Part shown: positions 510 through 38,902 of the stretch, piece after piece
How the letters are laid out: each line of letters starts with the position of its first letter
Position numbering within the stretch: the first letter of the stretch is position 1
Assembly (NCBI GenBank): GCA_963813535.1
Contig: CAWEZH010000002.1
Location: 1,824,001-1,888,000, forward strand
Reading direction: 5' to 3'
DNA from: an uncultured Chloroflexia bacterium
Lineage (GTDB): Bacteria > Chloroflexota > Limnocylindria > Limnocylindrales > CSP1-4
Length of the DNA: 64,000 bases
Notes under the pieces: generated by a model
What the model saw: the letters and a program-made list of their open reading frames with translations, nothing else
Databases searched by the model: none
Told to the model about the DNA's origin: nothing
Translations under genes and position numbers: made by a program

Positions 510-586
510 CCGCCCGTAGCTCAGTGGATCAGAGCGACTGACTTCGGATCAGTAGGTCGGGGGTTCGAATCCCTCCGGGCGGGCCA
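510..586 (+). tRNA. tRNA-Arg, anticodon UCG
   Basis: Cloverleaf: acceptor CCGCCCG/CGGGCGG, anticodon arm ACTGA-CT-TCG-GA-TCAGT (TCG at 544-546), T-loop TTCGAAT, encoded CCA end. Confidence 0.96.
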
Positions 587-38826: not shown

Positions 38827-38902
38827 TGGTAGGGGAGCCAGGACTCGAACCTGGAACCAGCGGGATATAAGCCCACCGCTCTGACCATTGAGCTACTCCC
38901 CC
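38827..38902 (-). tRNA. tRNA-Ile, anticodon UAU
   Basis: Minus strand GGGGGAG TA GCTC AATGGTCA GAGC G GTGGG CT TAT AT CCCGC TGGTT CCAGG TTCGAGT CCTGG CTCCCCT A CCA; 76 nt, discriminator A, encoded CCA. Confidence 0.93.

What the first reader, a model, noticed from the sequence alone, without database searches (positions are those of the whole stretch)
38827..38902. tRNA-Ile with a UAU anticodon: candidate TilS-independent AUA decoding
Seen: an intact 76-nt cloverleaf with loop CU-UAU-AU, a G1:U72 pair, A73 and encoded CCA, among ordinary chromosomal genes with no mobile-element context. Established: nearly all bacteria decode AUA with tRNA-Ile(CAU) modified to lysidine by TilS, because U34 risks misreading AUG; Mycoplasma mobile is a known exception using UAU. 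Inference: this high-GC lineage has another solution to AUA/AUG discrimination. The U38 and the U28:G42 wobble in the anticodon stem may be tuning features.
Basis: partly seen in the sequence, partly recalled or inferred. Interest (0 to 1): 0.8.

Follow-up and report, generated by a model that had tools for sequence, protein, structure and literature searches.

The report
Lysidine-free AUA-reading isoleucine tRNA
This is a real isoleucine tRNA that reads the rare codon AUA directly, in a whole order of uncultured soil and freshwater bacteria that has deleted the "near-universal" enzyme TilS and the tRNA it modifies.

Summary
Window 38827-38902 (minus strand) holds an intact 76-nt tRNA with anticodon UAU.

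The reading as TilS-independent AUA decoding is supported, and for a whole lineage:
- The genome (3.28 Mb, 69.5% GC, 92.9% complete) has no TilS and only two CAU tRNAs, initiator and elongator Met.
- In a 251-genome draw of its class, the window's order carries the UAU tRNA (126 of 133) and never TilS (0 of 133). The sister orders show the reverse: 0 of 118 with the tRNA, 109 of 118 with TilS.
- Sister genomes have tRNA-Met, tilS, ftsH in a row. Here tilS is missing between tRNA-Met and ftsH, and the tRNA-Ile2(CAU) site is empty.
- AUA is rare (0.38 per 1000 codons) but aligns with Ile or Val, never Met, in relatives.

IleRS is type 2, as in the TilS-bearing sisters. U38 is a conserved pyrimidine in the order. 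The U28:G42 wobble is peculiar to this species.

This is a new member of a known kind (Mycoplasma mobile, Bifidobacterium). Record titles of related MAGs place it in Chloroflexota, Candidatus Limnocylindria. The scan reported this tRNA before in six other Limnocylindria genomes. The TilS and CAU test is new here. How AUG is avoided is untested.

The parts
38827..38902 (-). tRNA-Ile(UAU) gene, 76 nt, with encoded CCA (38827-38829), A73 (38830), and G1 (38902) paired with U72 (38831)
   Evidence: ARAGORN; Rfam RF00005 at 70.1 bits; sequence; covariation in 24 orthologues
38867..38869 (-). Anticodon U34-A35-U36 (TAT on the minus strand)
   Evidence: TAT is called in 29 of 30 and 29 of 30 relatives' loci. 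Contigs of runs X1, X2 and X15 show no variant here.
38865..38865 (-). U38. Position 38 is a pyrimidine throughout the order. The C32-U38 combination is unique among this genome's 51 tRNAs.
   Evidence: Sister-order tRNA-Ile2(CAU) and tRNA-Met have A38.
38875..38875 (-). U28 of the U28:G42 wobble (G42 lies at 38861). This is a species-specific change, not a conserved feature.
   Evidence: 27 of the 28 relatives' copies have C28:G42 and one has C28:U42. Public contigs read G on the plus strand at 38875, which is C28.

Best explanation
The gene encodes the only AUA-decoding tRNA of this organism. It is a tRNA-Ile whose U34 pairs directly with the A of AUA. It replaces the usual pair of tRNA-Ile2(CAU) and lysidine synthetase TilS.

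The replacement happened once, in the ancestor of the window's order. By the titles of related MAG records this is Candidatus Limnocylindrales in Chloroflexota, and it includes the roughly 1.1-Mb Limnocylindrus-type genomes.

Shown here:
- The tRNA is intact, conserved and covarying.
- tilS and the CAU-type tRNA-Ile2 are deleted at their ancestral loci.
- AUA is still used, and it sits where relatives have Ile or Val.

Inferred:
- The type 2 (archaeal/eukaryote-like) IleRS charges the tRNA. This enzyme was already present before the switch and keeps the conserved pocket for nucleotide 34.
- U34 carries no C5 modification, because MnmE, MnmG, CmoB and the TrhP family are not detected.
- Misreading of AUG is limited by competition with tRNA-Met, by the extreme rarity of AUA, and possibly by the lineage-specific C32-pyrimidine 38 loop.
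For: tRNA.

Own genome:
- 51 tRNAs. Only two have CAT: the initiator (CGCGGGG...) and an elongator Met identical to the sister family's tRNA-Met.
- TilS N-terminal family TIGR02432 gives 0 matches at E<=0.001, while all 14 control genomes match.
- PF01171 scores at best 18.9 bits against a cut-off of 27. PF11734 and PF09179 also stay under their cut-offs.

Class draw of 251 genomes, each at least 85% complete:
- UAU-tRNA pattern: f1 112/118 plus the window's own genome, f2 13/14, f3 0/38, f4 0/79, f5 0/1.
- TilS over cut-off: 109 genomes, all in f3-f5, and none of the 133 in f1, f2 and the window's own genome.

Synteny:
- In G125 and G043 the order is tRNA-Met, tilS (PF01171 at 153-160 bits), ftsH. 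In the window's genome tRNA-Met is followed by ftsH after about 265 bp.
- The genes that flank tRNA-Ile2(CAU) in G043, G125 and G052 are adjacent in the window's genome, with about 200 bp between them and no tRNA remnant.

Meaning of AUA:
- 67 own AUA positions aligned to four relatives gave Ile 30, Val 12, Leu 3, Met 0.
- The rare Ile codon AUU as control, 66 positions, gave Ile 32, Val 10, Met 2.
- In the closest relative, 10 of 30 AUA positions are AUC.

AUA use (crude ORF sets):
- 0.38 per 1000 codons here, in 255 of 2118 ORFs.
- 2.37 per 1000 in the TilS-less G153, and 0.42 in the TilS-bearing G125.

IleRS:
- tRNA-synt_1, Anticodon_1 and DUF5915, with no zinc-finger domain.
- Orthologues in 28 of 28 class genomes tested.
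- The nucleotide-34 pocket residues Q961, R964, K965 and L969 of P. megaterium IleRS2 align with Q1058, R1061, R1062 and L1066 here.
Against: Nothing here shows the RNA is made, charged with Ile, or what U34 looks like chemically. Cover in one RNA library comes from relatives' contigs and may be DNA.

The genome is 92.9% complete in 3 contigs, so absence rests on synteny and on the clade pattern rather than on a closed genome.

The AUA test is small (67 positions, on crude ORF calls with GC3 above 0.8). AUA sites are less conserved than AUC sites. Against G153 only 1 of 7 aligned with Ile.

Seven of 133 in-group genomes lack the pattern. The cause may be incompleteness or variant loops.

Type 2 IleRS cannot explain the switch by itself, because the TilS-bearing sisters have it too.

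TrhO and unknown modification enzymes were not searched for.
Confidence: 0.85

Rival explanations
1. Same replacement, different chemistry. U34 of this tRNA is modified, either to 2-thiouridine by the MnmA that the genome does encode or by an unknown enzyme. That modification, not the bare U, restricts reading to A. This rivals only the 'bare U34' step of the best explanation.
For: MnmA (TIGR00420) is present at 332.6 bits, over its cut-off. Eukaryotic tRNA-Ile(UAU) is modified to a pseudouridine-A-pseudouridine anticodon and is a substrate of type 2 IleRS (discussion of Taniguchi 2013). An unmodified U34 normally also wobbles to G, which is established knowledge.
Against: MnmG gives 0 matches. 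MnmE gives only GTPase-domain matches under the cut-off. CmoB has nothing over its cut-off and the Peptidase_U32 (TrhP) family gives 0 matches. That MnmA needs U35 is recalled, not tested here. In M. mobile the U34 is unmodified.
Confidence: 0.3
2. TilS and tRNA-Ile2(CAU) are present but were missed, either in an assembly gap or as a very divergent enzyme. The UAU tRNA would then be a redundant extra, as in Lactobacillus casei or Cyanothece.
For: The genome is 92.9% complete. Some bacteria do carry both systems. Several Chloroflexota outside this order show TilS together with a tRNA-like UAU match, for example G270 and G313.
Against: None of the 133 in-group genomes has TilS over the cut-off, against 109 of 118 sister genomes in the same search. 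tilS is missing exactly between tRNA-Met and ftsH on an intact contig. The tRNA-Ile2 site is empty on an intact contig. No third CAT tRNA is found.
Confidence: 0.03
3. The tRNA is not an isoleucine tRNA in the cell. It could be charged with Met or another residue, or AUA could be effectively unassigned, with the gene kept for another role.
For: In sequence the tRNA is about as close to the elongator tRNA-Met (mean identity 0.70) as to the sister orders' tRNA-Ile2 (0.71). It shares G1:U72 with tRNA-Met. AUA is very rare. Several E. coli IleRS identity pairs, recalled as C4:G69, C29:G41 and A38, are not present.
Against: None of 67 AUA positions aligns with Met, and Ile is the commonest partner, as for AUU. 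CAU is the main MetRS identity element (passage of PMC12514573 seen), and it is absent here. A quick tree puts the UAU tRNAs on the Ile2/Ile/Val side of a 95% SH-aLRT split, away from Met (only 74 columns). G153 uses AUA in 124 of 226 ORFs.
Confidence: 0.05
4. The gene is a recent import or a decaying copy that happens to look intact.
For: tRNA genes with odd anticodons often travel on mobile elements.
Against: The gene is present in 126 of 133 genomes of the order. Its flanks are conserved across genera of family f1. Compensatory changes keep every stem. There are no mobile-element genes nearby.
Confidence: 0.02

Closest known systems
Mycoplasma mobile tRNA-Ile2(UAU) system (Taniguchi et al. 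2013, PMC3575796; abstract, passages and discussion read)
   Same: There is no tilS and no tRNA-Ile2(CAU). A gene-encoded UAU anticodon reads AUA as Ile. The loss is lineage-specific, inside a phylum that otherwise has TilS.
   Different: M. mobile has a type 1 IleRS whose zinc-binding domain carries Arg865 in place of Trp. Here IleRS is type 2 with no zinc-binding domain. M. mobile is a reduced, AT-rich parasite. This is a free-living lineage of about 3.3 Mb and 69.5% GC where AUA is nearly unused. The unmodified U34 and the ribosomal rejection of AUG shown for M. mobile are untested here.
Bifidobacterium and Neorickettsia species that lack tilS (discussion of Taniguchi 2013; its Supplementary Table S1 was not opened)
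   Same: tilS is absent, a tRNA-Ile(TAT) gene is present, and IleRS is of the archaeal/eukaryote type 2. This is the same combination as here.
   Different: They belong to different phyla, so the origin is independent. Here the TilS-bearing sister orders have the same type 2 IleRS, so the enzyme type alone does not mark the switch.
Canonical bacterial system: tRNA-Ile2(CAU) plus TilS (lysidine)
   Same: It does the same job, reading AUA and not AUG. It is the ancestral state of this class, still present in families f3-f5 with the layout tRNA-Met, tilS, ftsH.
   Different: Both components are deleted here.
Bacillus subtilis tilS-deletion suppressor, tRNA-Ile1 with G34 changed to U (Koehrer et al. 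2014, PMC3919564, listing and abstract only; described)
   Same: It shows that a single anticodon change to UAU can replace TilS.
   Different: It is a laboratory mutant derived from tRNA-Ile(GAU). The tRNA here is not GAU-derived. Its body is nearest to tRNA-Ile2(CAU) and tRNA-Met, and it lies at a locus of its own.
Eukaryotic cytoplasmic tRNA-Ile(UAU) with a pseudouridine-A-pseudouridine anticodon, charged by type 2 IleRS (as described)
   Same: A UAU-type anticodon paired with a type 2 IleRS.
   Different: The eukaryotic tRNA is intron-dependent and modified by Pus1. No such pathway was examined here.

Membership tests
tRNA (Rfam RF00005) | Cloverleaf that matches the covariance model above the gathering score | tested here: met
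   70.1 bits against a gathering score of 29, model positions 1-71 of 71; ARAGORN
TilS-independent AUA decoding by tRNA-Ile(UAU) | Gene-encoded TAT anticodon in an intact, conserved tRNA | tested here: met
TilS-independent AUA decoding by tRNA-Ile(UAU) | No tilS in the genome | tested here: met
   for the window's genome. 0 of 133 genomes in the order. Syntenic deletion between tRNA-Met and ftsH. Caveat: the genome is 92.9% complete.
TilS-independent AUA decoding by tRNA-Ile(UAU) | No tRNA-Ile2(CAU) | tested here: met
   There are two CAT tRNAs only, the initiator and the elongator Met. The ancestral site is empty, and no copy is found genome-wide by blastn.
TilS-independent AUA decoding by tRNA-Ile(UAU) | AUA codons are in use and mean isoleucine | tested here: met
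   309 AUA codons in 255 of 2118 ORFs. Of 67 aligned positions, Ile 30, Val 12, Met 0, like the AUU control. The sample is small and indirect, with no peptide evidence.
TilS-independent AUA decoding by tRNA-Ile(UAU) | IleRS charges the UAU tRNA with isoleucine | not testable with these tools
   Only one IleRS (type 2) is present, and its nucleotide-34 pocket is conserved.
M. mobile subtype | Type 1 IleRS with Arg or Lys in place of the wobble-stacking Trp of the zinc-binding domain | tested here: not met
   IleRS is type 2 (DUF5915 C-terminus, no zinc finger). The system therefore works like M. mobile's but is not of that subtype. It matches the Bifidobacterium/Neorickettsia combination.
M. 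mobile subtype | Unmodified U34 and rejection of AUG on the ribosome | not testable with these tools
   Indirect only: MnmG and MnmE are absent, MnmA is present, and CmoB and Peptidase_U32 are absent.
IleRS type 2 (IleRS2) | C-terminal ARD3 domain in place of the zinc-binding domain | tested here: met
   PF19302 at 101.5 bits over residues 942-1124. The best solved relatives are the P. megaterium IleRS2 entries 8c8w, 8c9d, 8c8v and 8c8u (E 5e-175 to 5e-171).

The most novel reading that the evidence does not exclude
An entire order of free-living, GC-rich Chloroflexota reads a split codon box with a U34 tRNA while lacking every known bacterial pathway for C5 modification of U34. On this reading it has evolved its own way to keep that tRNA off AUG: a conserved C32-pyrimidine 38 loop found in no other tRNA of the genome, together with lineage-specific changes in the anticodon-reading domains of its type 2 IleRS. 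Those changes are D1049, nine residues before the nucleotide-34 pocket, and F834. The same loss of TilS has also happened at least three more times within the phylum (families f56 and f27, and genome G619), so TilS would be far less indispensable in nature than its essential-gene status suggests.
Probability: 0.3. Interest if true: 0.7.

Novelty: new member of a known kind. Interest (0 to 1): 0.5.

Why it matters
TilS is treated as essential and nearly universal in bacteria. The published exceptions seen here are nine species in three clades and 19 species with TAT-anticodon genes.

This case shows a clean, datable loss of both tilS and its substrate tRNA at the base of a large, abundant, free-living order. 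The sister orders keep the old system, and both share the same IleRS type and the same low AUA use. That makes a natural before-and-after pair for asking what a cell needs in order to swap lysidine for a plain U34.

It also bears on annotation. In this lineage a missing tilS or a "missing" third CAU tRNA is not a sign of an incomplete genome. And it bears on proposals to free AUA for recoding (PMC4237120, listing only).

Tried and rejected
- Origin of the tRNA. Identity to the sister orders' tRNA-Ile2(CAU) (0.71) and to the elongator tRNA-Met (0.70) is a tie. A 74-column tree leans to the Ile2 side but is weak. I leave the origin open. An in-place C-to-T change is excluded, because the UAU gene does not lie at the ancestral Ile2 locus.
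- 'Type A' and 'type B' UAU tRNAs. At first they looked like two genes. They share one acceptor stem and D arm and are one gene family with covarying stems.
- IleRS type as the cause. Rejected, because the TilS-bearing sisters have the same type 2 enzyme.
- Clade-diagnostic IleRS residues. There are seven: D263, W343, G476, V733, A744, F834 and D1049, plus insertions at 161-206, 358-361 and 478-494. All lie on one branch of the tree, so they are leads, not evidence. D1049 is not a pocket residue.
- Promoter and terminator scan around the gene. It found nothing, which is uninformative at this GC content.
- RNA-library contigs over the tRNA. They carry other flanks, so they come from relatives, and they may be DNA carry-over. 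They are not counted as expression. The contig of run X4 stops before the anticodon.
- Literature searches for this lineage. None described it: Limnocylindria with tRNA (4 papers); tilS with Chloroflexi and tRNAIle (1 review); tilS with Patescibacteria (12 papers, of which the 10 listed are unrelated by title and abstract); tRNAIle with UAU, lysidine and metagenome (1 paper).
- Phylum-wide pattern matches. Outside the order many look like chance, because the reversed-pattern controls are as frequent. Only the tRNA-like ones were considered.

Full report
WHAT IS THERE.
ARAGORN finds two tRNA genes in the window. One is tRNA-Ile with anticodon TAT at 38827-38902 on the minus strand. Infernal matches it to the Rfam tRNA model at 70.1 bits over the whole model.

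- acceptor stem GGGGGAG/CUCCCCU with G1:U72
- A73 and an encoded CCA
- loop C-U-UAU-A-U
- a U28:G42 wobble in the anticodon stem

The neighbours are a LuxR-type regulator, an SH3-like protein, two ORFs with no family, a class V aminotransferase, a DUF6812 protein, an ATP-dependent DNA ligase and a GNAT. There is no integrase or transposase.

THE GENOME.
The window is C2:1824001-1888000 of a 3.28-Mb assembly in three contigs, with 69.5% GC, 92.9% completeness and 0.66% contamination.

ARAGORN finds 51 tRNAs:
- one Ile(GAT) and one Ile(TAT)
- only two with CAT. One is an initiator (C1 opposite A72, three G:C pairs at the foot of the anticodon stem). The other is an elongator-type tRNA, GGCGGAG...CUCCGCU.

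TilS is not found:
- TIGR02432 gives no match at E<=0.001, while all 14 control genomes match.
- PF01171, PF11734 and PF09179 give nothing over their cut-offs.

THE LINEAGE.
A DNA search with the tRNA in 40 relatives found copies 96-99% identical in 18 of 24 genomes of the same genus. It found copies 79-86% identical in 10 of 16 genomes of a second family of the same order, whose genomes are only 1.0-1.4 Mb. ARAGORN reads all of these as TAT. The locus list also holds the window's own copy (L009) and a tRNA-Trp (L038).

Titles of public records that carry the same anticodon arm are mostly Chloroflexota, Candidatus Limnocylindria, Limnocylindrales, Limnocylindrus or Aquidulcis MAGs. There are also hits in Patescibacteria and a few others. 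I take the taxon name from those titles only.

I then drew 251 genomes of the class, each at least 85% complete, and searched them twice.

| Group | UAU-tRNA pattern | TilS over cut-off |
|---|---|---|
| f1 | 112 of 118 | 0 |
| window's genome (f1) | 1 of 1 | 0 |
| f2 | 13 of 14 | 0 |
| f3 | 0 of 38 | see below |
| f4 | 0 of 79 | see below |
| f5 | 0 of 1 | see below |

- The pattern was a UAU anticodon loop followed by a T loop.
- TilS passes its cut-off in 109 genomes, all of them among the 118 of f3-f5. In f1 and f2 only 20-25-bit PP-loop matches occur, in open frames of roughly 370-760 residues.
- The two features therefore exclude each other, and the boundary is the window's order.
- Six genomes flagged unpublished (G192, G114, G204, G094, G154, G131) are among the f3 and f4 genomes of these tallies.

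THE LOSSES ARE REAL DELETIONS.
Five sister genomes each carry three CAU tRNAs: an initiator, an elongator Met and a GGGCCC-type tRNA-Ile2(CAU). The f4 elongator Met of G125 is identical to the window genome's second CAT tRNA. That tRNA is therefore Met, not Ile2.

In G125 and G043 the order is tRNA-Met, tilS (PF01171 at 153 and 160 bits), ftsH. In the window's genome the same tRNA-Met is followed after about 265 bp by the ftsH orthologue (72.7% identity), with nothing in between.

The tRNA-Ile2(CAU) of G043, G125 and G052 lies between two genes whose orthologues here are C2:295371-296665 and C2:296863-298329. The 200 bp between them hold no tRNA remnant. The best genome-wide matches to the sister tRNA are two tRNA-Arg genes.

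The UAU gene lies elsewhere, at a locus whose flanking ORFs are kept beside it in 37-39 of 58 relatives' loci. All of these are in f1, and none is among the 10 f2 loci.

IS THE TRNA UNDER SELECTION?
In 24 diverse copies, 10 of the 21 stem pairs show compensatory double changes and only one cell is unpaired. The loop CUUAUA never varies.
- Position 38 is U in 14 and C in 10 of these copies. One further genome shows G.
- G1:U72 holds in 21 of 24, with G1:C72 in the other three.
- The window's U28:G42 is its own peculiarity. Of the 28 relatives' copies, 27 have C28:G42 and one (L027) C28:U42.
- Contigs from soil runs of two studies and from one metatranscriptome library read C28 too. They have no variant at the anticodon.

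WHAT DOES AUA MEAN?
The ORF set is crude: 2118 non-overlapping ORFs of at least 100 residues with GC3 above 0.8. This biases against atypical genes. In it AUA occurs 309 times (0.38 per 1000 codons) in 255 ORFs. That is as rare as AUU (0.34), against 47.2 for AUC.

I aligned these proteins by tblastn to 400-800-kb samples of four relatives and read off what stands opposite each AUA.

| Relative | Kinship | AUA positions | Ile | Val | Leu | Met |
|---|---|---|---|---|---|---|
| G024 | same genus, median identity 92.8% | 30 | 20 (10 AUA, 10 AUC) | 4 | 0 | 0 |
| G017 | same genus, median identity 74.4% | 18 | 6 | 6 | 0 | 0 |
| G125 | sister order | 12 | 3 | 2 | 3 | 0 |
| G153 | other genus of f1 | 7 | 1 | 0 | 0 | 0 |
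| Sum | | 67 | 30 | 12 | 3 | 0 |

- The other six positions against G153 are scattered over six residues.
- The equally rare AUU gives Ile 32, Val 10, Met 2 of 66. AUG gives Met at 47-90% of positions.
- AUA therefore behaves as an isoleucine codon at weakly constrained sites.
- AUA is as rare in the TilS-bearing G125 (0.42 per 1000), so the rarity came before the loss. It is six times commoner in the TilS-less G153 (2.37 per 1000, in 124 of 226 ORFs), so the codon is in real use without TilS.

HOW IT PROBABLY WORKS.
The single IleRS (C2:516463-519846, 1127 residues from the first start) is type 2. It has class I catalytic and anticodon-binding domains followed by DUF5915, with no zinc finger. 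Its nearest solved relatives are the four P. megaterium IleRS2 entries.

Taniguchi et al. note that Bifidobacterium and Neorickettsia, which also lack tilS, have this type of IleRS, and that eukaryotic type 2 IleRS accepts a UAU-type anticodon. But all 28 class genomes tested have the orthologue, including 13 TilS-bearing ones. About half of all bacteria use IleRS2 (PMC13752280, passages). The enzyme type is therefore permissive, not decisive.

The residues that line the nucleotide-34 pocket in P. megaterium IleRS2 are Q961, R964, K965 and L969 (PMC13752280, section 8). They align with Q1058, R1061, R1062 and L1066 here.

Seven positions separate the 16 in-group from the 13 out-group enzymes. 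Two lie in anticodon-reading domains:
- F834 against Y, in ARD1
- D1049 against L, in ARD3, nine residues before the pocket Gln

All of these arose on a single branch, so they are candidates only.

For U34 itself:
- MnmG gives no match, and MnmE gives only GTPase-domain matches under the cut-off.
- CmoB has nothing over its cut-off, and the Peptidase_U32 (TrhP) family gives no match.
- MnmA is present. TrhO was not searched.

I therefore think an unmodified U34, as measured in M. mobile, is the most likely state. 2-thiolation or an unknown modification is the main alternative.

The C32-U38 combination occurs in no other of the genome's 51 tRNAs. Position 38 is A in the sister orders' tRNA-Ile2(CAU) and in tRNA-Met. 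From memory, not from a call, the 32-38 pair is known to tune A-site affinity in E. coli tRNAs. The other UAU tRNAs found in the phylum have A38, so a pyrimidine there is not a general requirement.

WIDER PICTURE.
In a 401-genome draw of the phylum, TilS passes its cut-off in 358 genomes. The 43 without it are:
- the 28 genomes of the window's order
- 15 others, of which 7 also show a tRNA-like UAU match: family f56 in 4 of 4 (one, G561, is flagged unpublished), family f27 in 2 of 3, and G619

Four TilS-positive genomes are also flagged unpublished. The swap has therefore probably happened several times in Chloroflexota.

The scan's own records hold six earlier reports of this tRNA in other Limnocylindria genomes and many in Patescibacteria.

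COMPARISON WITH THE LITERATURE.
The kind is known. Taniguchi et al. 2013 describe nine species in three clades without tilS and with a TAT gene. tRNADB-CE reports TAT genes in 19 species. Four full-text searches found nothing on this lineage. I did not open the supplementary tables of Taniguchi et al. Their Table S1 lists the species, and a Chloroflexota entry there would lower the novelty.

VERDICT.
This is a real, functional-looking tRNA-Ile(UAU) and the sole AUA decoder of an order that has deleted TilS and tRNA-Ile2(CAU). It is a new member of a known kind. Charging, the chemistry of U34 and the avoidance of AUG all remain to be measured.

Noticed in passing
G000:C2:296665-296863 (outside the window): The intergenic space where the sister orders carry tRNA-Ile2(CAU) holds two inverted DnaA-box-like TTATCCACA motifs between a well-conserved 490-residue gene and an ATPase-like gene. 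It may be the replication origin region.
   Followed up: no
whole genome G000: ARAGORN finds no tmRNA in the assembly. It also lists three oddly long tRNA calls: Arg(acg) of 84 nt at C2:109330, Glu(ctc) of 88 nt at C2:1329486 and Leu(gag) of 93 nt at C2:1331472. These may be false calls.
   Followed up: no
whole genome G000: No MnmE, MnmG, CmoB or Peptidase_U32 (TrhP) family member is detected, while MnmA is present. All U34 tRNAs of this organism may therefore lack C5 modification.
   Followed up: partly
L079:886-4266 (IleRS, G000:C2:516463-519846): The IleRS of the TilS-less order carries insertions absent from the sister orders, at residues 161-206, 358-361 and 478-494. The first also splits the match to solved IleRS2 structures.
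   Followed up: partly
Chloroflexota genomes G449, G554, G561, G596 (f56), G349, G373 (f27) and G619: These further lineages of the phylum lack TilS and show a tRNA-like UAU match with A38. G270 has TilS plus a UAU tRNA whose anticodon arm looks like tRNA-Ile(GAU). G561 is flagged unpublished.
   Followed up: partly
L247-L266 (G153:C3:1-400000): A TilS-less genus of the same family uses AUA at 2.37 per 1000 codons, six times the rate in the window's genus. Its UAU tRNA has C38 rather than U38.
   Followed up: partly
L355 and L356 (G125, G043): In sister family f4 the elongator tRNA-Met, a short (type II-length) tilS and ftsH form a conserved row. That tRNA-Met also has G1:U72, like the UAU tRNA.
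   Followed up: yes
window 510-586 (+): A second tRNA gene lies in the window, tRNA-Arg(TCG). It looks ordinary.
   Followed up: no
loci L086, L093, L104, L111, L113 and others: The same G31-CUUAUAU-C39 anticodon arm with a matching T loop occurs in many Patescibacteria MAGs and in a few Gammaproteobacteria, Anaerolineaceae, Verrucomicrobiia and Ruminiclostridium MAGs.
   Followed up: no
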